Shown here piece after piece: positions 3,966-30,100 of a stretch of DNA of 32,000 nt; position 1 is the first letter of the stretch; every line of letters starts with the position of its first letter. Source of the DNA: Candidatus Electrothrix sp. GW3-4 (GTDB taxonomy: Bacteria; Desulfobacterota; Desulfobulbia; Desulfobulbales; Desulfobulbaceae); assembly GCF_037902255.1 (NCBI RefSeq), contig NZ_CP147990.1, positions 3,840,001-3,872,000 of the forward strand, in the 5' to 3' direction. The translations under genes were made by a program, and so were the position numbers. The notes under the pieces are model-generated. The model was not told the DNA's origin. It saw only the letters and a list, made by a program, of their open reading frames with translations, and did no database searches.

Positions 3966-5146
3966 TATACTTTTCCTTCCTTTTTTCCTTTAAGAGACAC
4001 ATTTTTTAAAAGCGGTTTTTTTCCTTTTTCCTCTATGCTGCGTATTTGATCGAAATCAACACGATGGTATAATAAAATGAATAAATCTCCCAAATTATTT
4101 TCAGTATGAGGTATCAACAAGCCATTTTCCTCCTCGAAACAAGTAATCGCATCCTGAAGCTCAGCACTATAATCATAATTTATTTCACCAAAGTAATAAT
4201 TGAGCTTTCTGAGCATCAATTTTAAATATCTAATTCTGGTTAACTTATCAAGCTCCAACCATATCTGATATGCGGATACTGTTTCGTTTGGCGAAGGTCC
4301 ACTCTCCCCGAGGCAACCATTAAAATCTATTTTTTCCCCATACAATCCACGCAGTACCCACAAAGCGGCGGCCTCCACCAATGTTCTCTGGGCTCCGTGC
4401 ATGGCCTCGTTTAATTTTTCTTCTCTGGCAAAGCTCACCCCTCCTTCTCCGGCACCAAAACCAACAGAAAATTCATTTGATTTAGTATGCGTATTGAGCG
4501 TCAGAGTAGTCGCCGCCACAATAGTATTGTCCATCGCATTACCTACATGTACTGTTAGAGAGAGGCTTTTAGATGATTCAGCTTTTCCATATTCAATTTC
4601 CGCCGAACCATGCTTACCATCCACTTCAGCATTATTTCCAAACCCTTTGCTATGATAATCCTCGGAATCATTTTGTGTAAATACGCCTTTGATTCTAATT
4701 ATGCCGGTAACACCATAAATTTTTGCAAGCTCAAGCAAATATTTCTTATCCAATCTGCCGTACACATTTTCTCTTATCAGACCGTTCGGCAACGAATAGG
4801 GAATTACAATTTTTTTATTATAAACACTTCGTTTTATTATAGCTTCAAAATCATACTTACCAGCATCTGCCAACGGACCGTTATCCCTCATTGAACTGAT
4901 AATTAAAGCTTTAGAGTCGGTTATAATGGGCACTGTGCCGTCAAAAAAATCGTCCACCAAAAATAAAACAGGAGAACTCTCTGATTCCGAGAGTTTTTTC
5001 CCTACACACTTCACTGTCTCTGTAAGATTCGTAAGAGCGTCATGTGGTGTTTCCGTATTAATATTCGACATTGATGAATTAATATTAGAACAACCTGATG
5101 CTGCCAATAATAAATATATACAGAAAAAATATAATTTATCAGCCAT
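3965..5146 (-). CDS. lipoprotein, CsgG/HfaB-like N-terminal region fused to a PG_binding_1-like C-terminal domain (393 aa)
   Basis: Lipobox LLLAASG|C. PVLFLVDDFFDGT resembles the CsgG IAVxxFxDxTG motif. GIIRIKGVFTQND...SLSLTVHVGNAMDNTIVAATT...FSVGFGAG...AQRTLVEAAALWVLRGL follows the order of CsgG core elements. The C-terminal LKLMLRKLNYYFGEINYDYSAELQDAITCFEEENGLLIPHTENNLGDLFILL resembles LxxLGYYxGxIDGxFGxxTxxAVxxFQxxxGLxxTG. Recognised by eye only. Confidence 0.45.
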   Translation of the reverse strand: MADKLYFFCIYLLLAASGCSNINSSMSNINTETPHDALTNLTETVKCVGKKLSESESSPVLFLVDDFFDGTVPIITDSKALIISSMRDNGPLADAGKYDFEAIIKRSVYNKKIVIPYSLPNGLIRENVYGRLDKKYLLELAKIYGVTGIIRIKGVFTQNDSEDYHSKGFGNNAEVDGKHGSAEIEYGKAESSKSLSLTVHVGNAMDNTIVAATTLTLNTHTKSNEFSVGFGAGEGGVSFAREEKLNEAMHGAQRTLVEAAALWVLRGLYGEKIDFNGCLGESGPSPNETVSAYQIWLELDKLTRIRYLKLMLRKLNYYFGEINYDYSAELQDAITCFEEENGLLIPHTENNLGDLFILLYHRVDFDQIRSIEEKGKKPLLKNVSLKGKKEGKV

Positions 5147-5632
5147 GTTGATATATTACCCTGTCAATAAAAACAATCATAATTGATGAATTCGTAAAAA
5201 GTCGGTCGTGCCCTTCTTGACTGTTGTTAGGGTAAAAATCGCGAAATACTTATGGGGGGTTCCGGTTATGGAAATCTTGAGCAGTAAAATAAGTCGGTTC
5301 GTTGAATCGCGTCCGTTTTCTGGATTCAACAAAACTCAATAAGGCCACTTATCCACTATTAATCACGAAAATTTCCGTTTTTTACGAAACGGCAGAAAGA
5401 TAAAACAACAAAAAAGGGGTAAACGGCACATTTAAACCTGCCGATTAGAGGTGAGGAATTGATAAATCAAGTAGCACAACACATGATGTACCGTTATTAT
5501 ATTTGATTTAAAAATTACAAACGAACAGATATTCAAGGAACTTCATATAAGGTTCGGCCTGTTAAGCACGATAAAAAAAACCTACACACAGCGCAAAATT
5601 CTAAAGAGGATTTAAACTGCTCTCAAAAAAGA

Positions 5633-5968
5633 TCAATCACATTTAAACGTAAGGCTTTTAATCAAAAATTCCTGTGAAATATTATCACCGTCACTATCGT
5701 TGTAATTTCCATAGAACACACATTTTGGCTCTTCAATATTATCCACTGCTACAATATTCCCGTCCTCTTCCTTCACAATTTCTCCGTTTGTTTTGAGCGG
5801 AGTCGTTCCGACAAACACTTTCAGACTTTTATTCATAACGCTATTCAAGCTCGGATTGGCTTTCAAGCTTGGCACAGACGCCTTTTTTATTTCAGCGCCA
5901 CCTATCGCCGGCGCACTTACATATAAAAAAATCGCAACCAACAGAGCATACAGTGTCCTTGACAACAT
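5633..5968 (-). CDS. small secreted protein (111 aa), C-terminus ...FKCD
   Basis: The start is moved to the ATG at 5968, preceded by AAGGAG 7 nt upstream. Signal peptide MLSRTLYALLVAIFLYVSAPAIGGA. Two Cys residues in the mature part. No family recognised. Confidence 0.6.
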   Translation of the reverse strand: MLSRTLYALLVAIFLYVSAPAIGGAEIKKASVPSLKANPSLNSVMNKSLKVFVGTTPLKTNGEIVKEEDGNIVAVDNIEEPKCVFYGNYNDSDGDNISQEFLIKSLTFKCD

Positions 5969-6088
5969 AAACACTCTCCTTATAACAACATCATTCACCT
6001 TAAAATACAATATGTACCACACGCATACATCTTCTTTACATTCTAACTATACAACATTTTACCCATGAAGAATCGTATAAAACAATCC

Positions 6089-21520: not shown

Positions 21521-22147
21521 CTATTCACCAGCAGCAGGTCCTTCGGGCTCTGCTTCATCAATCTCCTCTGGCGTCTCAGTAGCTTCTTCCTCCTCTACAG
21601 CCTCTTGCTCCGCACTCACGTCTTCATTCCCAACAGACTCCTCCTGATCTACAGCCTCTTGTTCCGCAGTAGTTTCTTCATTCACAGCAGGAGCATTCTC
21701 ATCTATAATCCCTTGATCCGCACCAACGTTTTCATTTCCAGCAGGATCGTTCTGATCTATGGACTCTTGTGTCGCACTAACTTCTTGATGCGTTACTGGC
21801 TTGTTCTGCTCTGGGTCTCTTTCTTTAGCTCTTTTCATTTTGCGATACAGGCTAAACCGACCATAAGCAAAGTCATAGAGCTCTGATTTATCCTCAAGAG
21901 AGTTAAATCCTTTTTCAGCGATCTCCCCACTTTTCTTCCACTCACCCTGAGCATAGTAAAAATCACTCGCAATAAGATATCTATGAAAGTAGGCATCAAC
22001 GGATGCATAACAAATAGCTATAAGCGCTACAGCCAGGAATACCTTCTTATTTTTGCTCCCCTTAGGAGCTTTTATAAAAAGACAGAAAAAGAGTGGGACA
22101 AAAAGAAAAAATTGTAACAGGAAGACAATCAAATGAATTATGGACAT
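21521..22147 (-). CDS. membrane protein with acidic tandem-repeat C-terminal tail (208 aa)
   Basis: Two N-terminal hydrophobic segments, then a C-terminal tail of four 18-aa acidic repeats. No family recognised. Confidence 0.55.
   Translation of the reverse strand: MSIIHLIVFLLQFFLFVPLFFCLFIKAPKGSKNKKVFLAVALIAICYASVDAYFHRYLIASDFYYAQGEWKKSGEIAEKGFNSLEDKSELYDFAYGRFSLYRKMKRAKERDPEQNKPVTHQEVSATQESIDQNDPAGNENVGADQGIIDENAPAVNEETTAEQEAVDQEESVGNEDVSAEQEAVEEEEATETPEEIDEAEPEGPAAGE
21560..21775 (-). repeat. 4 x 54-bp in-frame tandem repeat inside the 208-aa CDS
   Basis: The DNA units 21560-21613, 21614-21667, 21668-21721 and 21722-21775 each end in ...c(t/c)cttg(n)(n)(n)cgc. They encode ATQESIDQNDPAGNENVG / ADQGIIDENAPAVNEETT / AEQEAVDQEESVGNEDVS / AEQEAVEEEEATETPEEI. 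Confidence 0.7.
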
Positions 22148-22694: not shown

Positions 22695-23075
22695 TCAAGA
22701 AGCTCCGCAGTCCTTCAGTAGCTTGCAAATATCAGAAATGATTCTCTCGCGTCTTTTGCTTGATAATGATTTTGTTGAGTATTTATCTTCATCACTTACC
22801 AAGTCACAAGAGTTATACAATTCGACAATCTTCTTCTTGCTCCACCTTTTACGTGTAAATCCAGGTGAAATAAAATTACGCTTTGGTGAGTACCAAAATT
22901 CTTCAGCTGAGAAATCAATGGCCTTAACGATTTCAGAATCTTCTTCTGGTACCGATGTCATACAGCATTTTGCTAATTCTTCGATGTTGAACGCGGCCCT
23001 GAGCTGATCCTTTGAAATCACAATCACAGGGTATACAGGCTCTCTAACACAGATAACAAATTTCTTTTCTTCCAT
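22695..23075 (-). CDS. hypothetical protein (126 aa), AT-rich orphan
   Basis: ORF track. More protein-like than the overlapping plus-strand ORF 22636-23007, and co-directional with its neighbours. No convincing SD and no family recognised. Confidence 0.4.
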   Translation of the reverse strand: MEEKKFVICVREPVYPVIVISKDQLRAAFNIEELAKCCMTSVPEEDSEIVKAIDFSAEEFWYSPKRNFISPGFTRKRWSKKKIVELYNSCDLVSDEDKYSTKSLSSKRRERIISDICKLLKDCGAS

Positions 23076-23269
23076 TTTTTCTGACTGTTACGGATTTAGG
23101 GGAGGGGGGCTCTGATTCGCGGCCCGGCGTTCGGGAAACGCAGCTCAACCCTTCTTTTTCTGATGTTTATTCTTTCTCGTAGTTAATTTGCCGTCTACAT
23201 GGACTGCTCTACAGACATCAACTTGATATTCTAGATTTTTATCACATAAATTCATTTTTCAATCATCAC

Positions 23270-23500
23270 GATTAAAATTGAAATCAGCATATTTTACGCT
23301 TCAATCGGCCTGATGTACATTTAAATCACTCTGATTCACATTTAAATCGCCTTGATTGAAGTGTAACTTGGCTTGATGCAAGTTTAAAATGGATCAATTC
23401 AAATTGGAATCGTCTTAATTCCAATCGAAATCGGGGTGATTCAAATTGACATCGGGTCAATTCCAATTGACTTTGGAACGATGCAAACGGCAAATCCTTG
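23270..23500. repeat. 11 x 21-bp perfectly phased degenerate tandem array, consensus about GATTCAAATTnAAATCGnnnT
   Basis: Hand-parsed units, each exactly 21 bp: gattaaaattgaaatcagcat / attttacgcttcaatcggcct / gatgtacatttaaatcactct / gattcacatttaaatcgcctt / gattgaagtgtaacttggctt / gatgcaagtttaaaatggatc / aattcaaattggaatcgtctt / aattccaatcgaaatcggggt / gattcaaattgacatcgggtc / aattccaattgactttggaac / gatgcaaacggcaaatccttg. Stop codons occur in all the frames I checked, and no ORF of 60 aa or more is present. Confidence 0.85.
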
Positions 23501-23523: not shown

Positions 23524-23688
23524 TCACTCCAACTTTTGGAGATTTTCCCGCTGGACATATCGTATACCAATATCGCCATCATCGTCCGCTTCAATCTTTA
23601 CCCTTTTTTCTGTGAATCCTAAAACCTTCCCCGATACAGGATACACATAATCACCACCGGGTATGCGCTTGGTTCTAACTTCGGCCAA
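23524..23688 (-). CDS. possible small ORF (54 aa, TTG start)
   Basis: The minus-strand frame continuing after the TAG of the transposase-like ORF reads LAEVRTKRIPGGDYVYPVSGKVLGFTEKRVKIEADDDGDIGIRYVQRENLQKLE*. It looks protein-like, but it has a non-ATG start and no SD, is below the ORF-track cut-off, and overlaps the left inverted repeat. Confidence 0.2.
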   Translation of the reverse strand: MAEVRTKRIPGGDYVYPVSGKVLGFTEKRVKIEADDDGDIGIRYVQRENLQKLE

Positions 23689-24967
23689 TTCCCTCTAAGC
23701 GGCCATCGCCAAACGATTTCTTGGACGTGGCGGATAATCCATATTATTCAAGAGGTGCTCAAGAAGATTTCCATGTTCGGCCTCGAAAAACCTCAAAGCA
23801 GGGGTGGTATTATCCTCTCGTTTGATATGAACATTATGGATTACCGTCTGTGCCTGTAAATGTGAATCGCTCAGCCTATGTATTCCGTGATGTCGAAGTG
23901 ACAACTGAGCGTTTCTTCCCTTGACACAGGAACTTGACCTCTGGAAAAATTGAGCGCACTCTTTAGCGCTTTGTATCAGGGATGCCGTTTTTTCTGGATT
24001 GATCCCTGATATCAATCCGTCGTGTTGACCGATAATTGAAAGTAGTTCGGCTGATTGCTGTTGAATCAGCTCCTTTCTGACCTTATCCTTTTCTTTTTCC
24101 GCAACGAAAGAAAGATAGAAACCGGGAATCAGTCGATCCTTCAGCAGTATTTTTTCTTCACCGGAAAAATCTTTATTTTCGAGATGTTGATCCACCATTG
24201 TCCAAAAGAAGGCTATGGTGGAAACTAAATTGGCCACAACCTTATACGCTTTTTTTACATGATCGCGACATTTCCCGGAAAGACCGGCTGCCGCTTTATT
24301 TATTTCGGAAAAGCAGGAGTCCAGGAGGCTCTCTACCGTAGAAGGGTCCTGCCTTTCTCCTGTTATGGGATCATAAGGGTGATAAATATGCCCGATCCTC
24401 TTTCTCGCCGCACAGATGGTTTCCTGGTTTTCACGAGCTTTCAGCAGTTCCGCCTCCGCACTTTTTCTTTGTTTTTCAGCAAGGTTAACCTTTTTTGCAA
24501 AACCCGGTCTCCTGCCTCTCGGGCGACGCTCCCGTGAATCGTAACAATGCATTTCTTCTTTTATTTTATCTGCTTATTTCTCTGCTTATTTCTCTGCCGA
24601 TTGAAAAGCTTTTTCCGCTCTTCTGATCTTCGAAGCAAGCGGCCCGGAAGTTCCTTTGCCTATATCGTGAGATACATGAAAAATATCCGACGAATGATGA
24701 ACCCCTTTATCGAGGAATGAAGCCGGTTGTGATTATTTCCTCTTACTTTATCTGGAGAAATTTGATATTGCGTGGCCATAGCTGCTTGTTTTTGTTGGTT
24801 TGTTCTTTGGTTGGGAAAAACCTAATACAAAATCAAGCAGCTTTCATCTATCTTATTCTTCTAAAAAAATATTTTTTTCACAGGCCACTTTCTCCAAAAA
24901 ATAGAAAGCTCCAAGAGGATTGAGCTGTACTTTGGCAGTACAATATTGGCCGAACTTAGAACCAAGC
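23667..24967 (-). mobile_element. IS-like element remnant (1301 bp) bounded by 23-bp imperfect inverted repeats
   Basis: Left gcttggttctaacttcggccaat (23667-23689) versus the reverse complement of 24945-24967, gcttggttctaagttcggccaat: 22/23 identical. Both read inward. The element encloses the transposase-like ORF. I saw no flanking direct repeat. Confidence 0.45.
23695..24552 (-). pseudogene. transposase-like protein, apparently the C-terminal portion only (285 aa)
   Basis: FQRSSSCVKGRNAQLSLRHHGIHRLSDSHLQAQTVIHNVHIKREDNTTPALRFF resembles the C-terminal SSxxEGxNxxL...HN...R.DG.T.A.RFF signature of some DDE-transposase-associated families. I recall DUF6399-type annotations but cannot verify that. 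The about 390 bp between its start and the right IR holds only short broken frames on the same strand (e.g. MATQYQISPDKVRGNNHNRL..., ...GKGTSGPLASKIRRAEKAFQSAEK*). Confidence 0.45.
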
Positions 24968-25120: not shown

Positions 25121-26536
25121 TTATTTCTTGTCGTCCTTCTTGCTCTCCTGCCCACCCCCTAACACCGTGTACAGGCTAACCTGATTGGCCAACCGGGCCA
25201 GACGAAGGGAGATCACGGCCTGCTGCTGGCCATAGAGGGAGCGGTGGGCATCCAGCACACTGAGGTAGCTGTCCAGCCCCATGGTATAGCGTTTATCCGA
25301 GAGCTCATAGGTGGCCTGGGCTGATTCCACCAGGGCCTCCTGGGCAGCCAGCTGCTCGCTGATCGTGCCCTGCACGGCCAAGGCATCTGCCACCTCCTGA
25401 AAGGCGGTCTGCACGGTCTTTTCATACTGGGCTAACAGGATCTTCTGATCTATCTTACTGATCTTCAACGCCGACCAGACCCGGCTGTCAAAGATGGGGA
25501 TCTGGACCTCCGGGACAAAGCTCCAGATCCCGGTACCAGAGCTGAACAACCTGCCCAAATCATCACTGGCCGTACCTGCGGAGGCGGTCAGCGAGATCCG
25601 GGGAAAGACCGCAGCCCGGGCTGCGCCAATAGAGGCATAGGCCCCCTTAAGCTTATGCTCTGCTGCCACAATATCCGGCCGATTGAGCAGCACCACTGAA
25701 GGCAGGCCAGGATCGATCTCCTTGAGCGCAGCCACAGAGTTCAATTGATCGGGAAGGAATTTTCCCGGCACCGGCGCACCGACCAGCAGGTTCAGGGCAT
25801 TCCGATCCTGGGCCACCATCTGAGTGAAGCGGGGCACATCCCGCCGGGCCGCCTCCACCTCGGTCCGGGCCCGACGCAGATCAAGCTCAGTGGCCAAGCC
25901 GTTTTCATAGCTCTTACCGATCAGGTCATACGAGTCCTGCTGACTCTTGAGCGTCGCCTGGGCCAGTTTGAGGTTTTCCTGGTCTGCAGCCAGAGTGAGA
26001 TAGGCCGTGGCCACTTGGCTGATCAGGACCAGCTCCGCGCTGCGGTGGGCCTCCTCAGTGGCCAGATATTCCTCCAGGGCCTGATCGGTCAGGCTACGGA
26101 TGCGACCAAAGAAGTCCAGCTCCCAGGAGGGAATCTCCGCCTTGAGGCTATACTTCTCGCTGGAGCGTGGCTGGCCTTGTTCGACCAGGTCAGCAGAGAA
26201 GCGTTGTTTATCCAGGCTGCCGCTCCCATCAACAGCGGGAAAGATACCGGTGCGGTGCACGCCGTACATGGCCTGGGCCCGTTCCACATTCAGGGCCGCC
26301 ACCCGCAGATCGCGGTTATTGGCCAAGGCCAGCTTGATGACCTTACGCAGCTTGGCATCGCTAAAAAACTCCTGCCAGGAAATACCTCTGATCTGTTCCC
26401 CTTGCTGCTCCTTATAGGCATCGCCCTGGGGCCATTCTGCCGGAACCGGGTCTTTCGGTCGCTCATATTGGGGGGCCATGGTGCAGCCACCAGACAAAAG
26501 CAGGGTGGCCAGGGCCAGAATCTGTAGCTTGTTCAT
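25121..26536 (-). CDS. RND efflux outer-membrane factor lipoprotein (NodT family)
   Basis: Lipobox LLLSGG|C, and two TolC-like repeats with typical NNRDLRVA and LDLRRARTEVEAAR helices; 471 aa. Its start overlaps the RND pump stop by 4 nt (ATGA). Confidence 0.9.
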   Translation of the reverse strand: MNKLQILALATLLLSGGCTMAPQYERPKDPVPAEWPQGDAYKEQQGEQIRGISWQEFFSDAKLRKVIKLALANNRDLRVAALNVERAQAMYGVHRTGIFPAVDGSGSLDKQRFSADLVEQGQPRSSEKYSLKAEIPSWELDFFGRIRSLTDQALEEYLATEEAHRSAELVLISQVATAYLTLAADQENLKLAQATLKSQQDSYDLIGKSYENGLATELDLRRARTEVEAARRDVPRFTQMVAQDRNALNLLVGAPVPGKFLPDQLNSVAALKEIDPGLPSVVLLNRPDIVAAEHKLKGAYASIGAARAAVFPRISLTASAGTASDDLGRLFSSGTGIWSFVPEVQIPIFDSRVWSALKISKIDQKILLAQYEKTVQTAFQEVADALAVQGTISEQLAAQEALVESAQATYELSDKRYTMGLDSYLSVLDAHRSLYGQQQAVISLRLARLANQVSLYTVLGGGQESKKDDKK

Positions 26537-29500
26537 GCGGACTGTACCTCCGGTTTGTTGGGAGCATCAAGTTTCTTTGCAGGCTGCTGCTTATCCTTTT
26601 TTCCGCCAAAGAGCTGGGAGACCAGGACAAAGAAGAGCGGGATAAAGATCAGATCGATAAAGGTGGCCGAGAGCATCCCACCGCAGACCGCTGTGCCCAG
26701 GGCATTCATCGCCCCTGCGCCTGCGCCCCCGGCAACGGCCAGGGGCAGGACGCCAAAGAAGAAGGCCAGGGAGGTCATCATGACTGGCCGAAACCGGGTC
26801 TTGACCGCATCCAGGGTGGCCTCGGTCAGGCCCTGGCCCACGGCCAGCCGTTCCTTGATGAACTGGATGATCAGAATGGCGTTCTTGGTGGACAGCCCCA
26901 TAGTCGTCAAAAAGCCGATCTGGAAATAGACATCATTGGGCATACCGCGCAGCGAAGAGGCAACAATGGCCCCGAACACCCCCAGCGGCAACATCAACAG
27001 GTTGGCAAAAGGGATGGTCCAGCTCTCGTACAGGGCGGCCACGCAGAGGAAGATGACAAAGATAGAAAAGGCGTAGAGGATCGGCCCCTGCTTGGTGGCC
27101 ATTTTCTCCTGATAAGAGAGACCGCTCCAGTCAAAGCTGATGCCCTGCGGCAACCTGCTCACCAGCTCCTCCATGGCTGCCATGGCCTCACCGGTACTGT
27201 GACCAGGTGCAGGCTGTCCCTGGATATTCATGGACGGAAAGGCATTATAGCGTTGCAGCGATGGTGACCCGAGGCTCCAACGGCCTGTGGCAAAGGCGGA
27301 AAAGGGCACCATCTTACCTTCCGTATTACGGACATAGAGCCGTTCCATGTCCTGAGGCAGGCGACGATAGGAGGCATCGGCCTGGACATAGACCTTTTTG
27401 ACCCGGCCTGCCTGGATGAAGTCGTTGACGTAGCTGCTGCCAAAGGCGGTGGCCAGGGTGCTGTGGATGGAACTGAGCGGCACACCCAAGGCACCGGCCC
27501 GGTCCCAATTCACGTCCACCCGGTATTCCGGGGTGTCCATCATCCCGTTGGGCCGAACCCCCATCAGACGTGGATCCTGGGCCGCCATCCCCAACAGCTG
27601 GTTACGGGCTGCGGCCAACTTCTCATGGCCCAGACCGCCCCGGTCCTGAAGCTGAAAATCAAAACCATTCGCCATACCCAATTCGATTACCGGCGGCGGC
27701 GGAAAGGCAAAGACCATGGCCTCCTTGATCTGGGACAGGGCCCCCATGGCCCGGCCAGCAATGGGCTTGACCTTGAGGTCCGGTCGCTGCCGTTCCTCCC
27801 AGTCCTTGAGTTTGATAAAGCACATGGCCAGATTCTGGCCCTGGCCGCTGAAGTTACGGCCGGAGATGGTCATGGCGTTCTTGACCGCCTCTGCTTCGTG
27901 CTCCAGGAAGTAGTTGCGCACCTTGGTCACCACCGCCTCGGTCTGCTCCAGGGTGGAACCGGGAGGCAGCATGATCTGGACCAACACCATACCTTGGTCC
28001 TCGTCCGGGATATAGGAGGTGGGCATCCGCTGCAGGAGAAATCCGGCCAAAGCCAGAATCAACAGGTAACAGACCAGGAAGAGGGCCTTGGTACGCAGGG
28101 AAAAGGCGACAAAGCGCACGTAGAGGCTGCGGATGCCGCCGAAGAAGAACTCGAACACGGCAAAGAAGGGGCGCATAAAGAAGATGGCGTTTTCCGACGG
28201 CGCATGTCCGGCCTTGACCGGTTTCAGGAAGGAGGCGCAGAGGACCGGAGTGAGGATCAGAGCCACCAGCACGGAGAGGAGCATAGCCGTAATCAGGGTG
28301 ACAGAGAACTGGCGGTAGAGGACCCCCGTAGAGCCGGGGAAAAAGGCCATGGGCCCGAAGACGGCGGACAGGACCAGGCCGATCCCGATCAGGGCACTGG
28401 TGATCTCGTCCATGGACTTAGCTGTGGCCTCCTTGGGCGGCAGGCCCTCCTCACTCATGATCCGCTCCACGTTCTCCACCACCACAATGGCATCGTCCAC
28501 CAAGAGACCGATAGCCAGGACCATGGCAAACATGGTCAGCATGTTGACCGAATACCCCGCAAAACCGAGCACGGCAAAGGTGCCCAACAGGACCACAGGC
28601 ACGGCAATGGTGGGAATAATCGTCGCCCGAATATTACCCATGAACACGTACATGATGATGAAGACCAGGATAATGGCCTCGAACAGGGTCTTGATCACCT
28701 CATCAATGGAGACCTTGGTAAAGGGGGTGGTGTCGTAGGGATAGATCACCTTCATGCCCGGCGGAAAGAACCGGCTCATCTCCTCCAGCTTCTCCTTGAT
28801 CGCCGTGGCCGTTTCCAGGGCATTGGCTCCGGCAGCCTGGCGCACCGCCATCCCAGCGGCAGGCCTGCCATTGCTCTTGACGATGGAGTCGCTGCGCTCA
28901 ATGGCCAGCTCAGCCCGACCGATATCCTTAATTCGCACGGCAGAGCCGTCCTGATTGATGCGGATGGGCACCTCGGTAAATTCTTCCGGTGTTTCGAGAA
29001 GGTGCTGGACCACAATGGGCGCGTTGAGCCGCTGCCCCTCTGCGGCTGGCGTACCACCCAGCTGGCCAGCAGAGACCTCTACGTTATAGGAGCGCAGGGC
29101 CGCCATTACATCGGCAAAGGTGAGGCTGTAGCTGGTCAGTTTGTCCGGGTTGATCCAGATCCGCATGGCATACTGGGAACCAAAGGGCTGCACCTCACCG
29201 ACCCCGGGAATCCGGGCCAGGACTTTTTCCAGATTGGATTGGGCATAGTCCTGGAGGTCGTTGCTGTCCATGCTGCCGTTTTCCGAGATCAGGGCCGGGA
29301 TGAGCAACCAGTTACGGGTGGACTTGCTCACCTGCACCCCGGAGCGCTGGACCACATCCGGCAGGCTGGCCAGGGCCAGCTGGAGCTTGTTCTGCACCTT
29401 GGCCCAGGCCAGATCCGGATCAGTGCCAGCGGCAAAGGTCAGCTCCACCCGAGAGGAACCCGAGGACGAGCTGCTGCCGGAGAGGTAGATCATATCGTCC

Positions 29501-29718
29501 AGCCCGGTCATCTTCTGTTCCACGATCTGGGTGACCGTATTCTCCACGGTCTCCGCAGATGCGCCGGGAAAGAAGGCATCAATGGCAATGGCGGGTGGGG
29601 CAATAGGTGGATACTGGGCAATGGGCATCTGGTGGATAGCCAGTGCGCCCAGCGTCATGATAATAATGGCAATAACCCAGGCAAAGACGGGTCGGTCAAG
29701 AAAAAATTTCGAGAGCAT
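26533..29718 (-). CDS. RND multidrug efflux permease (HAE1, AcrB/MexB-like), 1061 aa
   Basis: MLSKFFLDRPVFAWVIAIIIMTLGALAI..LPIAQYP, GLLVDDAIVVVENVERIM and KNAILIIQF are classic AcrB-family segments. Expected 12-TM architecture and length. Confidence 0.97.
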   Translation of the reverse strand: MLSKFFLDRPVFAWVIAIIIMTLGALAIHQMPIAQYPPIAPPAIAIDAFFPGASAETVENTVTQIVEQKMTGLDDMIYLSGSSSSSGSSRVELTFAAGTDPDLAWAKVQNKLQLALASLPDVVQRSGVQVSKSTRNWLLIPALISENGSMDSNDLQDYAQSNLEKVLARIPGVGEVQPFGSQYAMRIWINPDKLTSYSLTFADVMAALRSYNVEVSAGQLGGTPAAEGQRLNAPIVVQHLLETPEEFTEVPIRINQDGSAVRIKDIGRAELAIERSDSIVKSNGRPAAGMAVRQAAGANALETATAIKEKLEEMSRFFPPGMKVIYPYDTTPFTKVSIDEVIKTLFEAIILVFIIMYVFMGNIRATIIPTIAVPVVLLGTFAVLGFAGYSVNMLTMFAMVLAIGLLVDDAIVVVENVERIMSEEGLPPKEATAKSMDEITSALIGIGLVLSAVFGPMAFFPGSTGVLYRQFSVTLITAMLLSVLVALILTPVLCASFLKPVKAGHAPSENAIFFMRPFFAVFEFFFGGIRSLYVRFVAFSLRTKALFLVCYLLILALAGFLLQRMPTSYIPDEDQGMVLVQIMLPPGSTLEQTEAVVTKVRNYFLEHEAEAVKNAMTISGRNFSGQGQNLAMCFIKLKDWEERQRPDLKVKPIAGRAMGALSQIKEAMVFAFPPPPVIELGMANGFDFQLQDRGGLGHEKLAAARNQLLGMAAQDPRLMGVRPNGMMDTPEYRVDVNWDRAGALGVPLSSIHSTLATAFGSSYVNDFIQAGRVKKVYVQADASYRRLPQDMERLYVRNTEGKMVPFSAFATGRWSLGSPSLQRYNAFPSMNIQGQPAPGHSTGEAMAAMEELVSRLPQGISFDWSGLSYQEKMATKQGPILYAFSIFVIFLCVAALYESWTIPFANLLMLPLGVFGAIVASSLRGMPNDVYFQIGFLTTMGLSTKNAILIIQFIKERLAVGQGLTEATLDAVKTRFRPVMMTSLAFFFGVLPLAVAGGAGAGAMNALGTAVCGGMLSATFIDLIFIPLFFVLVSQLFGGKKDKQQPAKKLDAPNKPEVQSA

Positions 29719-29872: not shown

Positions 29873-30100
29873 AAGGATGGTTTTATCGATGTTGAGGGCC
29901 GAAGAACGGCCCCGCAGGGCGGTTCAACGGCTCTCGGGTGCCGTTGAAGCATACCAGAGGTATGGTTTTATCTATCGGCGGATAGGCTGAACCATACCCA
30001 GGGATACCTTTTACCTCTCGCCGGATAGGTCGAACCATACCCGAGGTATGGTTTTTCCTCTCAGCGGAGAGCTTGAAGGTATCCGGTGAGAGGTTCTTGA
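29873..30100 (-). repeat. Dispersed structured repeat, composite copy B (core 29989-30042)
   Basis: GGTATGGTT lies at 29959-29967 and 30045-30053, and AACCATACC at 29990-29998 and 30033-30041. This includes a perfect hairpin AACCATACC-CGA-GGTATGGTT (30033-30053). An internal direct repeat tcg(g/c)cggatagg(ctg/tcg)aaccataccc is 22/25 identical, at 29975-29999 and 30018-30042. The core is 44/54 identical to 305-358 in inverted orientation. Confidence 0.6.

What the first reader, a model, noticed from the sequence alone, without database searches (positions are those of the whole stretch)
23270..23500. Perfectly phased array of eleven 21-bp degenerate direct repeats in non-coding DNA
Seen in the sequence:
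- Eleven contiguous units of exactly 21 bp have the consensus about GATTCAAATTnAAATCGnnnT.
- Many units contain an internal GATT...AATC dyad and A/T tracts.
- There are no spacers and no long ORF.
- The array sits between an orphan 126-aa gene and an IS-like remnant.

Established knowledge:
- Tandem arrays of about 20-bp protein-binding repeats are typical of three things: plasmid and phage replication iterons, type Ib/II partition centromeres, and multi-site transposase-binding ends such as those of Tn7 or Mu.
- A 21-bp period equals two helical turns. Bound proteins or A-tracts would therefore lie on one face, giving a curved or wrapped nucleoprotein.

Inference:
- This may be a relic or an active cis-site of a mobile or replicating element.
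- One of the adjacent small proteins could be its binder.
Basis: partly seen in the sequence, partly recalled or inferred. Interest (0 to 1): 0.7.

Follow-up and report, generated by a model that had tools for sequence, protein, structure and literature searches.

The report
Phased 21-bp array, orphaned fn3-gene module
The 21-bp repeat array is real, conserved and non-coding; it belongs to an apparently undescribed family of phased repeat arrays that sit upstream of a small fibronectin-type-III gene in several bacterial phyla and have multiplied in cable bacteria, and in this window the original gene has been replaced by an unrelated orphan gene.

Summary
Observation confirmed: 12 contiguous 21-bp units (23249-23500, minus strand), z=19 above shuffles, unique in the 32 kb. 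The window is Ca. Electrothrix sp. GW3-4, a cable bacterium. The array is non-coding and shows no hairpin covariation. Each unit is an 18-bp mirror-symmetric motif (YRATTYMMR|YKKRAATYR) plus a 3-bp free spacer. Orthologous arrays are as conserved as the neighbouring coding sequence (90-92%), far above the adjacent spacer, and differ by whole-unit indels. At least 17 such arrays occur in 5 or more cable-bacteria genomes. All are polar: a start-variant unit, 7-16 units in two opposed orientation blocks, then an end-variant unit. The array is the conserved upstream partner of a ~200-aa helical+fn3 protein family (at least 1,493 members), including in a Methylococcaceae-binned MAG, an unidentified GC-richer organism and Sumerlaeota, where the unit sequence differs but the 21-bp period holds. 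The window keeps the fn3 leader and about 14 relic codons; a 126-aa orphan gene replaced the rest. Best reading: a helically phased lattice of oriented protein-binding sites controlling the downstream gene; the binder is unidentified. The plasmid/phage iteron, centromere and transposon-end readings, intrinsic curvature, and the neighbouring proteins as binders are not supported.

The parts
23249..23500 (-). Array of 12 contiguous 21-bp units, read on the minus strand, which is the strand of the downstream gene. Internal unit: RnnnY-RATTYMMR|YKKRAATY. Unit-type pattern: LnnnnnLRRRnn.
   Evidence: Register, consensus and autocorrelation; z=19 against shuffles; PWM run of 12 units; orthologous arrays in L006 and L010; L/R typing.
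23480..23500 (-). Gene-distal 'start-variant' unit CAAGGATTTGCCGTTTGCATC. The motif TTTGCCGTTTrmAwC is shared by the first unit of nearly all arrays of the family.
   Evidence: Register print-outs of 17 arrays, L135 and L146.
23249..23269 (-). Gene-proximal terminal unit GTGATGATTGAAAAATGAATT. It corresponds to the family's 'end-variant' unit GATTyAAACGTG (intact in L006 and L010) and is followed by an A-rich block.
   Evidence: A sigma70-like match, TTGAAA-16-AAAAAT at 23262-23235 on the minus strand, lies here; this is a consensus match only.
23108..23245 (-). Relic of the conserved leader that separates array and fn3 start codon in cable bacteria, including the SD-like AAGAAGGG at 23149-23156.
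   Evidence: An nhmmer profile of four fn3 leaders hits window 23245-23108 (-), E=5.2e-6; alignment A5.
23108..23143 (-). Stub of about 12-14 relic codons of the fn3 gene. The start ATG is mutated to CTG at 23141-23143: CTGCGTTTCCCGAACGCC... against ATGCGTTTTCCAAACACT... Homology to fn3 ends here.
   Evidence: Alignment A5. In L010 the ATG survives and is the annotated start of the 145-aa form P0123. No other fn3 homology in the 32 kb.
22695..23075 (-). 126-aa orphan gene (WGN25_17070) now sitting behind the array and leader. It is the replacement cargo, not the array's original partner and not a credible binder.
   Evidence: No Pfam, NCBIfam or PADLOC hit, and only one weak partial PHROGs match (E=6e-4) to a family of unknown function. 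Ten homologues, all Electrothrix-like. Found without an array in L005, L007, L008 and L003. AF2 pLDDT 86, pTM 0.82, no significant PDB match. The CDS shows a coding signature, with diffs by codon position of 11:6:24.

Best explanation
The array is a cis-acting lattice of oriented, near-palindromic protein-binding sites on duplex DNA. There is one half-site (GATTyA / TrAATC) per helical turn and one 18-bp dyad per 21 bp, so all sites face the same side of the helix. The lattice is organised as two opposed blocks: 'L' units distal and their reverse complement 'R' units proximal, capped by special first and last units. An unidentified sequence-specific protein, probably a dimer that oligomerises along the lattice, is inferred to assemble on it and control the promoter or leader of the gene immediately downstream. 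Ancestrally that gene encodes a ~200-aa helical+fn3 protein, and array, leader and gene form a module found in several phyla and multiplied in cable bacteria. In this window the module survives as array + leader + about 14 relic fn3 codons, and a 126-aa orphan gene has taken the place of the fn3 body. Shown: the anatomy, the selection at DNA-motif level, the family, the fn3 linkage and the gene replacement. Inferred: that a protein binds, that binding is cooperative, and that the output is transcriptional control.
For: Anatomy. 167 distinct internal units carry about 22 bits, and the per-column preferences are mirror images over 18 bp with a 3-bp free spacer. L and R unit types are reverse complements, about equally frequent (61 vs 72). 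They occupy opposite halves of the arrays (mean relative position 0.25 vs 0.71, p=2e-15; L precedes R in 16 of 17 arrays).
Not base pairing. The palindrome arms do not covary (pairs 6-21 p=0.40, 10-17 p=0.13). Mirrored linkers and mirrored unit cores are no more complementary than permuted ones (combined p=0.29).
Selection. Orthologous units are 90-92% identical, like the CDS (89-93%) and unlike the adjacent spacer (56-73%). Substitutions fall 2:1 in linker versus core columns and show no codon periodicity (14:15:13). Length changes are whole 21-bp units.
Phase. The 21-bp period and the position upstream of the gene are kept in Sumerlaeota although the unit sequence is different.
Linkage to a downstream gene. 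A full fn3 gene lies downstream of arrays on the same strand in L034, L048, L084 and L146 (cable bacteria), L121 and L141 (44% identity), L136 and L144 (24-29%) and L140 (56-61%), and decayed fn3 fragments follow arrays in L065, L037 and L023. Homology between Electronema PJ and TJ starts exactly at the array's upstream edge. The window retains the leader (E=5e-6) and the start-codon stub.
Against: No binder is identified. The two obvious candidates fail. The 126-aa protein has no DNA-binding fold and is not linked to the array. The fn3 protein's N-terminus is a helical hairpin with no match, and unit type does not follow fn3 protein similarity. No convincing promoter was found between array and gene, while two loci have sigma70-like matches just upstream of the array, so the array may be transcribed. 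About half of the cable-bacteria arrays have neither fn3 nor its leader downstream, and their flanking genes share no function, which looks more like a dispersed repeat than a regulon. Units are not independent samples because many arrays are orthologues or paralogues, so p-values are inflated. In Sumerlaeota the units are plain direct repeats, with no obvious opposed blocks on visual inspection (not quantified).
Confidence: 0.45

Rival explanations
1. The array works as RNA. It is transcribed from a promoter upstream of it as a long repeat-containing leader or separate small RNA. [quoted passage not shown]
For: The architecture 'tandem repeats, then a ~200-aa gene on the same strand' is that of type III TA loci (PMC3401426). 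The module is self-contained, multi-copy and often decayed, and it sits near defence or TA genes (GmrSD, STAND NTPase, PemK, DndD). Sigma70-like matches lie just upstream of the array in L048 and L140, and none lies between array and gene. Both strands fold better than shuffles (z -2.8 to -4.2).
Against: L and R units are reverse complements of each other. On duplex DNA they are one site in two orientations, but as RNA they are two unrelated sequences. There is no arm covariation and no register-specific pairing. Predicted folds are irregular inter-unit pairings and the antisense strand folds better. No terminator lies between repeats and gene in 5 loci. Units are about 70% alike, not near-identical, and 21 nt rather than the 36 nt of the ToxI repeat. 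The protein has no ToxN/Kid/MazF-like fold and no PADLOC hit at E<=0.001. There is no Rfam match.
Confidence: 0.2
2. It is a dispersed composite intergenic repeat of the BOX/BIME kind: a modular A-(B)n-C element that spreads or is copied within cable-bacteria genomes with little or no host function. The array in the window is one more copy.
For: There are variant first and last units with 7-16 internal tandem modules, as in boxA-(boxB)n-boxC (PMC3049150). The ends are partly inverted repeats of each other (GCCGTTTAAATC ... GATTTAAACGTGC). Flanking genes are unrelated. Paralogous copies lie in one genome (L037 and L065), and one orthologous array sits in rearranged surroundings (L100 and L107). 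The arrays are AT-rich relative to their flanks.
Against: Arrays are kept at orthologous positions across genera and are conserved like coding sequence, with motif-patterned substitutions. The association with one gene family persists down to 24-29% protein identity and across phyla. In the boundary-motif orientation nearly all arrays have a co-oriented gene directly downstream, which is not the downstream-of-CDS or convergent bias reported for mobile pneumococcal repeats. No mobilising transposase is linked to the arrays, target-site duplications were not looked for, and the predicted structure is not tight or covarying.
Confidence: 0.15
3. One reading: iterons of a replication origin, a partition centromere, or a multi-site transposon end. 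On this view the array is a relic or active cis-site of a plasmid, phage or transposon integrated here.
For: About 20-bp repeats at about 21-22-bp spacing upstream of a small gene, followed by an A-rich block, is the classical layout of iteron replicons (own knowledge). The array lies in a low-GC patch (0.40-0.42, against 0.52-0.59 further out) next to an IS remnant.
Against: No Rep, ParA/ParB/ParR, integrase or Tn7/Mu-type transposase lies next to any of about 25 arrays. The IS has its own terminal repeats and ends 167 bp away. No DnaA box lies in the intergenic region. Array DNA and the fn3 protein are absent from plasmid and phage collections, and the pattern is absent from viral contigs. 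Several arrays occur per chromosome, at conserved chromosomal loci. Units are in two opposed blocks, not one direct series, and the blocks are contiguous with no cargo between them.
Confidence: 0.06
4. The array is a decayed protein-coding heptad repeat (21 bp = 7 codons).
For: One frame is open across the whole array in L006 (90 codons) and L010 (98 codons) and reads xRFxFxS heptads. A frame of the Sumerlaeota array, translated by hand from the sequence, reads NxAFPVx heptads.
Against: With the observed column preferences that frame stays open over 12 units 70% of the time by chance. Orthologous substitutions are 14:15:13 over codon positions, against 11:6:24 in the neighbouring real gene. 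Mirror-symmetric base preferences have no coding rationale. There is a stop in the window copy and no start codon or RBS. Gene callers did not call a gene across the array in the loci inspected (L010/L011).
Confidence: 0.03

Closest known systems
Iteron arrays of theta-replicating plasmids and phage origins (pSC101, pPS10, R6K, F, P1, lambda ori) - own knowledge
   Same: Tandem ~20-bp protein-binding repeats phased at about two helical turns, lying just upstream of a small gene, followed by an A/T-rich stretch. Copy number changes by whole units.
   Different: There is no Rep initiator, DnaA boxes or plasmid/phage context. Several arrays occur per chromosome at conserved loci. Units are dyad-symmetric and arranged in two opposed blocks rather than one direct series. 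The partner gene encodes a helical+fn3 protein.
Plasmid partition centromeres built of tandem repeats (R1 parC, pSK41 parC 20-bp repeats, F sopC, omega-binding heptad arrays of pSM19035) - own knowledge
   Same: Contiguous short repeats are bound cooperatively by small dimeric proteins into a one-faced or superhelical nucleoprotein filament. Mixed direct and inverted unit orientations (omega heptads) and a double role as operator of the adjacent promoter are also features of these systems. This is the best analogy for how the array probably works.
   Different: There is no ParA/ParM motor and no RHH or ParB gene nearby. The arrays are chromosomal and multi-locus. The unit is an 18-bp dyad with a 3-bp spacer. 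The binder is unknown.
Type III toxin-antitoxin loci (toxIN, cptIN, tenpIN; PMC3401426)
   Same: A tandem nucleotide-repeat array lies immediately upstream of a ~200-aa protein gene on the same strand. The two-part module is self-contained, is often found truncated, and lies in defence-rich neighbourhoods.
   Different: No terminator lies between repeats and gene. The repeats are 21 nt and about 70% alike, against the 36-nt ToxI repeat. The units come in both orientations. The protein is not a ToxN/Kid/MazF-like endoribonuclease.
Composite interspersed repeats: pneumococcal BOX elements (boxA-(boxB)n-boxC; PMC3049150) and enterobacterial BIMEs
   Same: Modular build with special end modules and a variable number of internal tandem modules. 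The copies are intergenic, multi-copy and AT-rich, and BOX elements can influence expression of downstream genes.
   Different: The units here are shorter (21 bp against the larger box modules) and strictly phased. They are conserved at orthologous loci like coding sequence. They are tied to one gene family across phyla. No tightly folded RNA is predicted, and there is no sign of MITE-type mobilisation.
Opposed arrays of DnaA boxes in oriC (left and right DnaA-oligomerisation regions) - own knowledge
   Same: Two blocks of oriented, helically phased low-information sites point in opposite directions and are capped by special sites at the outer ends. This suggests two protein filaments growing towards or away from the centre.
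   Different: The motif is different, there are no DnaA boxes, there is no origin context, and there are many loci per genome.

Membership tests
Iteron-type replication origin | Tandem 17-22-bp repeats at about 21-22-bp spacing | tested here: met
   12 units at exactly 21 bp.
Iteron-type replication origin | Cognate Rep initiator gene adjacent to the iterons | tested here: not met
   No Rep family in the window's neighbours or next to any other array. The fn3 protein model has no winged-helix domain.
Iteron-type replication origin | DnaA box(es) and an unwinding element beside the repeats | tested here: not met
   No TTATCCACA-like site (up to 1 mismatch) lies between 23076 and 23666. The window total is 10, against 6.8 expected by chance. 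An A-rich block is present.
Iteron-type replication origin | Located on a plasmid, phage or integrated element | tested here: not met
   No match in the plasmid or phage collections, and none in viral contigs. Orthologous chromosomal positions across genera.
Partition centromere (type Ib/II) | Adjacent parA/parM NTPase and a centromere-binding protein gene | tested here: not met
   None in the 32 kb around the array or in about 25 related loci.
Partition centromere (type Ib/II) | Cooperative binding of a small dimeric protein to the repeats | not testable with these tools
   Needs EMSA or footprinting. The anatomy is compatible.
Multi-site transposon end (Tn7, Mu) | Transposase-binding repeats at two ends in inverted orientation flanking cargo, with a cognate transposase | tested here: not met
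   The opposed blocks are contiguous. The only transposase-like gene is a DUF6399 IS remnant with its own terminal repeats at 23667-23687 and 24947-24967.
Type III toxin-antitoxin locus | Tandem repeat array upstream of the protein gene on the same strand | tested here: met
   The criteria are taken from PMC3401426.
Type III toxin-antitoxin locus | Palindromic terminator between repeats and toxin gene | tested here: not met
   No sense-strand terminator-like site in the window, L048, L141, L140 or L034.
Type III toxin-antitoxin locus | Toxin of the ToxN/CptN/TenpN endoribonuclease kind | tested here: not met
   Pfam finds only fn3. PADLOC gives nothing at E<=0.001 (three weak hits at E about 0.003-0.006 for P0216 only). 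Fold search matches only the fn3 domain.
Type III toxin-antitoxin locus | Toxicity of the protein and neutralisation by the repeat RNA | not testable with these tools
   Requires expression experiments.
BOX/BIME-like composite interspersed repeat or MITE | Modular element with end modules and a variable number of internal tandem modules | tested here: met
   Start and end variant units with 7-16 internal units.
BOX/BIME-like composite interspersed repeat or MITE | Many dispersed copies per genome | tested here: inconclusive
There is only one in this 32-kb window.
BOX/BIME-like composite interspersed repeat or MITE | Target-site duplications or insertion polymorphism showing mobility | not tested
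   L005 against L006 (same protein, array absent or present) hints at polymorphism, but the flanks differ too much to define an insertion.
BOX/BIME-like composite interspersed repeat or MITE | Tightly base-paired predicted RNA structure | tested here: not met
   No arm covariation and no register-specific pairing. The folds are irregular.
Known RNA family (Rfam) | Match at gathering threshold | tested here: not met
   No hit on the window or on the arrays of 8 related loci.

The most novel reading that the evidence does not exclude
The phased 21-bp lattice plus the ~200-aa helical+fn3 protein is a self-contained two-component system of a kind not yet described. In it the repeat array (as DNA or as RNA) and the fn3 protein form a repetitive nucleoprotein assembly with its own biology, for example a new addiction or defence module, or a chromosome-anchored scaffold. 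It has been exchanged between phyla and expanded and partly domesticated in cable bacteria, where orphan arrays such as the one in this window now drive unrelated genes.
Probability: 0.25. Interest if true: 0.85.

Novelty: new variant of a known kind. Interest (0 to 1): 0.72.

Why it matters
Cable bacteria cannot be grown in pure culture, and almost nothing is known about how they regulate genes. A conserved, high-information cis-element present at several loci per genome is a direct handle on an unknown DNA-binding factor and on the genes it controls. More generally, the work links an uncharacterised protein family of about 200 aa (at least 1,493 members, several phyla) to an obligatory-looking upstream repeat lattice whose period (two helical turns) is conserved even where its sequence is not. 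That is a testable architecture: pull-down of the binder, reporter assays with unit-number or half-turn phase mutants, and RNA-seq. It resembles iterons, centromeres, type III TA loci and BOX elements but fails the defining tests of each. The arrays also sit at or near contig ends in several short-read assemblies (L006, L023, L034, L069), so they may contribute to assembly breaks in cable-bacteria genomes.

Tried and rejected
1. IS subterminal repeats: rejected. The DUF6399 IS ends at its own inverted repeat 167 bp from the array, and intact copies elsewhere (L001, L002) have no such array.
2. Coding heptad repeat: rejected by the codon-position and open-frame null tests.
3. Per-unit RNA or ssDNA hairpins and a long array-wide hairpin or cruciform: no covariation and no register-specific pairing. 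RNAfold z-scores do not discriminate.
4. Intrinsic curvature from phased A/T tracts: the wedge model gives end-to-end/contour 0.93, against 0.89 +/- 0.06 for shuffles. The parameters were recalled from Bolshoy et al. 1991, so this is approximate.
5. The 126-aa protein as binder: no DNA-binding fold, and it is not linked to the array.
6. The fn3 protein as specificity determinant: unit type does not follow protein similarity, and the N-terminal domain has no fold match.
7. A regulon defined by the flanking genes: the functions are heterogeneous.
8. Orientation as a mere GC-skew artefact: array skew on the chosen strand ranges from -0.31 to +0.20.
9. Matches by eye to sigma54 promoters, IHF, CRP/FNR, Rex, ParB/Noc, PurR and GANTC methylation sites: spacing or conservation is wrong in each case. 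These were comparisons from memory only and are not reported as findings.
10. Plasmid, phage and viral searches: all empty.
11. Literature: no paper in the library holds 'cable bacteria' together with 'tandem repeat' and 'intergenic', and cable-bacteria genome papers discuss only IS-type repeats longer than 250 bp.
Full report
OBSERVATION. The array is real. Laid out from 23270, eleven consecutive 21-bp units share the + strand consensus GATTCAAATTGAAATCGGCTT (11-18 of 21 matches each). Same-base autocorrelation is 0.62, 0.59 and 0.58 at lags 21, 42 and 63, against about 0.25-0.3 at other lags. The lag-21 value lies 19 sd above the best lag of 500 dinucleotide-preserving shuffles, and the locus is the only such place in the 32 kb. 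Tandem Repeats Finder reports only two fragments because the units are degenerate. Comparison with relatives adds a twelfth unit, so the array spans 23249-23500.

SURROUNDINGS. Protein matches identify the window as Ca. Electrothrix sp. GW3-4, a cable bacterium with a 4.64-Mb contig. Almost all genes in this part of the window are on the minus strand. Around the array lie a ZIP transporter, a 208-aa protein, YjdM/PhnA, the 126-aa orphan gene (22695-23075), the array, a decayed DUF6399 gene, and then a TolC-like gene followed by a 1061-aa ORF that was not scanned. The DUF6399 gene is an IS remnant. Intact relatives of about 430-490 aa are flanked by 21-bp inverted repeats (L001), and the same repeats bound 23667-24967 in the window. 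The IS therefore ends 167 bp from the array, and the array is not part of it. The 22-25 kb stretch is low in GC (0.40-0.42). Rfam and tRNA scans are empty.

NOT CODING, NOT A HAIRPIN. Because 21 bp is 7 codons, I tested coding. One frame is open across the arrays of two relatives. However, the unit's column preferences alone keep that frame open over 12 units 70% of the time. Orthologous substitutions fall 14:15:13 over codon positions, whereas the neighbouring real gene gives 11:6:24. Across 167 distinct internal units from 17 arrays the motif carries about 22 bits. Its column preferences are mirror images over 18 bp (YRATTYMMR|YKKRAATYR), separated by 3 free bases. Yet the two arms do not covary (pair 6-21 p=0.40, pair 10-17 p=0.13), and A-C, C-A and T-C combinations are frequent. 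RNA folding gives z = -2.8 (sense) and -4.2 (antisense), with irregular inter-unit pairings, as any array of palindromic units would. A wedge model predicts no unusual curvature.

SELECTION. Two other Electrothrix lineages, L006 and L010/L011 (sp. AUS4), have the same array upstream of 88% and 83% identical orthologues of the 126-aa gene. They carry 14 units each by the same count that gives 12 in the window, all in exact phase. The end units are orthologous, and the middle differs by whole-unit insertions or deletions. Orthologous units are 90-92% identical. That equals the coding sequence (89-93%) and far exceeds the spacer between array and start codon (56-73%). Substitutions are twice as dense in the linker columns as in the core. 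Orthologous units were paired by best match, which biases the identity upward somewhat.

A FAMILY. A position-weight scan of those loci found high-scoring phased arrays of 7-16 units only in cable bacteria: Electronema sp. TJ and PJ, E. gigas, and Desulfobulbaceae S24.Bin023 and S01.Bin068, with 2-4 loci each. A stricter pattern found a few more in metagenomes and none in viral contigs. All arrays have the same polar build:
- two or three GC-richer 21-bp leader units
- a first unit of the form TTTGCCGTTTrmAwC
- the canonical units
- a last unit of the form GATTyAAACGTG
- an A-rich block

In this orientation nearly every array has a gene on the same strand 30-400 bp downstream. Each unit also carries an asymmetric extension in one of two orientations. 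L units read GATTCACACTT, and R units read AAATGTGAATC, the reverse complement. L units fill the distal half and R units the proximal half (mean relative positions 0.25 and 0.71; L precedes R in 16 of 17 arrays). The halves are opposed blocks of oriented sites, not a base-paired stem. Mirrored linkers and mirrored cores are no more complementary than permuted ones.

THE PARTNER GENE. Flanking genes have no common function, with one exception: a ~200-aa protein with a helical N-terminus and a C-terminal fibronectin type III domain. The evidence for this link is as follows.
- Full-length copies follow arrays in E. gigas, Electronema PJ and TJ, and E. scaldis.
- Decayed fragments follow arrays in L065, L037 and L023.
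- A Methylococcaceae-binned genome (44% identity; L121, L141) and an unidentified organism with GC-richer units (24-29% identity; L136, L144) have the same gene behind an array with the same core.
- In a Sumerlaeota genome (56-61% identity; L140) the gene is preceded by about 11-13 units of exactly 21 bp but of different sequence (rAAyrTGGCATTyCCwrTTsr).
- The family has at least 1,493 members at E<=1e-5.

In cable bacteria a ~110-nt leader is conserved between array and ATG and ends in AAGGAGG-N6-9-ATGCGTTTTCC. A profile of that leader hits the window directly after the array (23245-23108, E=5e-6). The alignment shows the SD-like AAGAAGGG, the start codon mutated to CTG (23141-23143), and about 12-14 recognisable fn3 codons. 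Homology then stops, and the 126-aa ORF begins about 30 bp further on. In L010 the old ATG survives and is the annotated start of a 145-aa form of the protein. The window's array is therefore an fn3-type module whose gene body was replaced. Other cable-bacteria arrays (L024, L053, L059, L069, L074, L100, L107, L123) have neither fn3 nor its leader, so the array type has also spread to, or been stranded at, other loci.

WHO BINDS? Neither candidate holds up. The 126-aa protein gives a confident model (pLDDT 86, pTM 0.82) with no significant structural neighbour and no DNA-binding motif. The gene also occurs without an array between hsdM and hsdS, after a trypsin-like gene, after a glyoxalase gene, and in L005. 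The fn3 protein model (pLDDT 86) has helices 7-21 and 34-86 followed by the fn3 sandwich. Only the sandwich finds matches in PDB, BFVD, Pfam or PHROGs, and PADLOC gives only three weak hits (E about 0.003-0.006) for one member. The array's unit type also does not follow the protein. The Sumerlaeota protein is 61% identical to the Electrothrix one but has a different unit, while the 24-25% identical proteins have the cable-like unit. The binder, if there is one, is encoded elsewhere.

MECHANISM. The best-supported reading is a lattice of oriented binding sites on duplex DNA. Its features are these:
- Half-sites GATTyA and TrAATC alternate every 10 or 11 bp, so there is one per helical turn, all on one face.
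- The 18-bp dyads suit a dimer.
- The two opposed blocks and the special end units suggest two filaments nucleated at, or stopped by, the ends.
- The position just upstream of a conserved leader suggests control of that gene.

The steps from 'sites' to 'a protein binds cooperatively and regulates transcription' are inference. The main rival is an RNA function. The layout recalls type III toxin-antitoxin loci (PMC3401426). Promoter-like matches lie upstream rather than downstream of two arrays. Against it are the reverse-complement unit types, the absent terminator, the degenerate 21-nt units, and a protein that is not ToxN-like. A BOX/BIME-like selfish repeat (PMC3049150) fits the modular build and the multi-copy, rearrangement-associated distribution. 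It does not fit the coding-level conservation at orthologous loci or the cross-phylum tie to one gene. The iteron, centromere and transposon-end readings fail their defining tests: no Rep, Par or transposase, no DnaA boxes, and no plasmid, phage or viral relatives.

NOVELTY AND LIMITS. Nothing like this is in Rfam. The searchable literature on cable-bacteria genomes mentions only IS-type repeats. I rate it a new variant of a known kind (phased arrays of protein-binding repeats). There is a fair chance that array plus fn3 protein is a system of its own. The limits are these:
- No expression or binding data are available.
- The genome scan was truncated and needed an exact match to a 45-bp degenerate pattern.
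- Many arrays are related by descent, so unit-level statistics overstate independence.
- The taxonomic labels of MAG contigs (Methylococcaceae, Sumerlaeota) are as deposited.
- The promoter position is unresolved.

Noticed in passing
window 23667-24967 (minus strand gene 23695-24552): Internally deleted, stop-ridden IS remnant (about 1.3 kb, against about 1.86 kb intact in L001) bounded by 21-bp inverted repeats GCTTGGTTCTAAsTTCGGCCA. Its protein is DUF6399 (PF19936). Full-length homologues are about 430-490 aa, mostly on 1-2-kb contigs, and one also carries DUF772. DUF6399 therefore behaves as the transposase of an IS family.
   Followed up: partly
window 21588-21781, inside ORF 21521-22147 (-): 2.8 copies of a 54-bp (18-codon) tandem repeat inside a 208-aa ORF with no Pfam or NCBIfam match. 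It is probably a coding repeat in an uncharacterised protein.
   Followed up: no
window 29946-30062: 2.7 copies of a 43-bp repeat (GAACCATACCCGAGGTATGGTTTTACC...) containing an internal palindrome. It lies between the end of the 1061-aa ORF (26533-29718) and the next gene and looks REP-like.
   Followed up: no
window 4001-6000: A second low-GC patch (0.37-0.39, against about 0.5-0.57 around it).
   Followed up: no
L010 928-1365 / L011 907-1344 (P0123): The 145-aa annotation of the 126-aa orthologue in Electrothrix sp. AUS4 starts at the relic start codon of the lost fn3 gene, giving a 19-aa N-terminal extension (MFPERQNANQSLGAANPEK).
   Followed up: yes
L005 vs L006: Two contigs from sister samples encode the identical 126-aa protein (P0122). 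One has the array upstream, and the other has unrelated DNA (a 77-aa ORF) with the YjdM/ZIP synteny of the window. This may be a presence/absence polymorphism of the array module.
   Followed up: partly
L100 2758-3051 vs L107 4382-4675: Orthologous arrays (80% identity) lie near hemC in two genomes but in inverted orientation and with different downstream genes (a pentapeptide-repeat protein against a 562-aa protein). The array sits at a rearrangement junction. L024 and L107 are adjacent pieces of one contig with two arrays 4.6 kb apart.
   Followed up: partly
L016 1333-1605; L133 1207-1395; L020 5362-5487; L134 about 720-920: Other, unrelated tandem arrays that also have a 21-bp period (a Prevotellaceae MAG: GTACAGATGTACTTTTCAATT x13, nearly perfect; L133: CCGATTRCAACTTGCAYC x11; an Ignavibacteriota MAG: GACGTAATTCCCGYGTACATT x6). 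21-bp tandem arrays may be a more general phenomenon.
   Followed up: no
L013, L015, L017, L028, L050, L070, L075, L077 and others (Prevotella sp. RGIG5030 and relatives): The scan pattern matched on both strands, offset by 11 bp, at many loci of one Prevotella MAG. This indicates a dispersed palindromic repeat family unrelated to the cable-bacteria arrays.
   Followed up: no
L117 5619-5828: A Bacteroidetes MAG has about 10 phased 21-bp units with the same core (AGATTCAAACTTGAATC) upstream of a peptidase M20 gene and without an fn3 gene. This is either convergence or a further orphan array in another phylum.
   Followed up: partly
L140 6700-7074; L146 4262-4696: A 23S_rRNA_IVP/bAvd-like four-helix-bundle gene directly follows the Sumerlaeota fn3 gene. 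A Ros/MucR-family zinc-finger regulator lies 5 kb upstream of the E. scaldis module. Each was seen only once and both are probably coincidental.
   Followed up: no
L048 1959-2035: A c-di-GMP-I-GGC riboswitch (RF03167, 60.5 bits) lies about 2 kb upstream of the array in Electronema sp. PJ.
   Followed up: no
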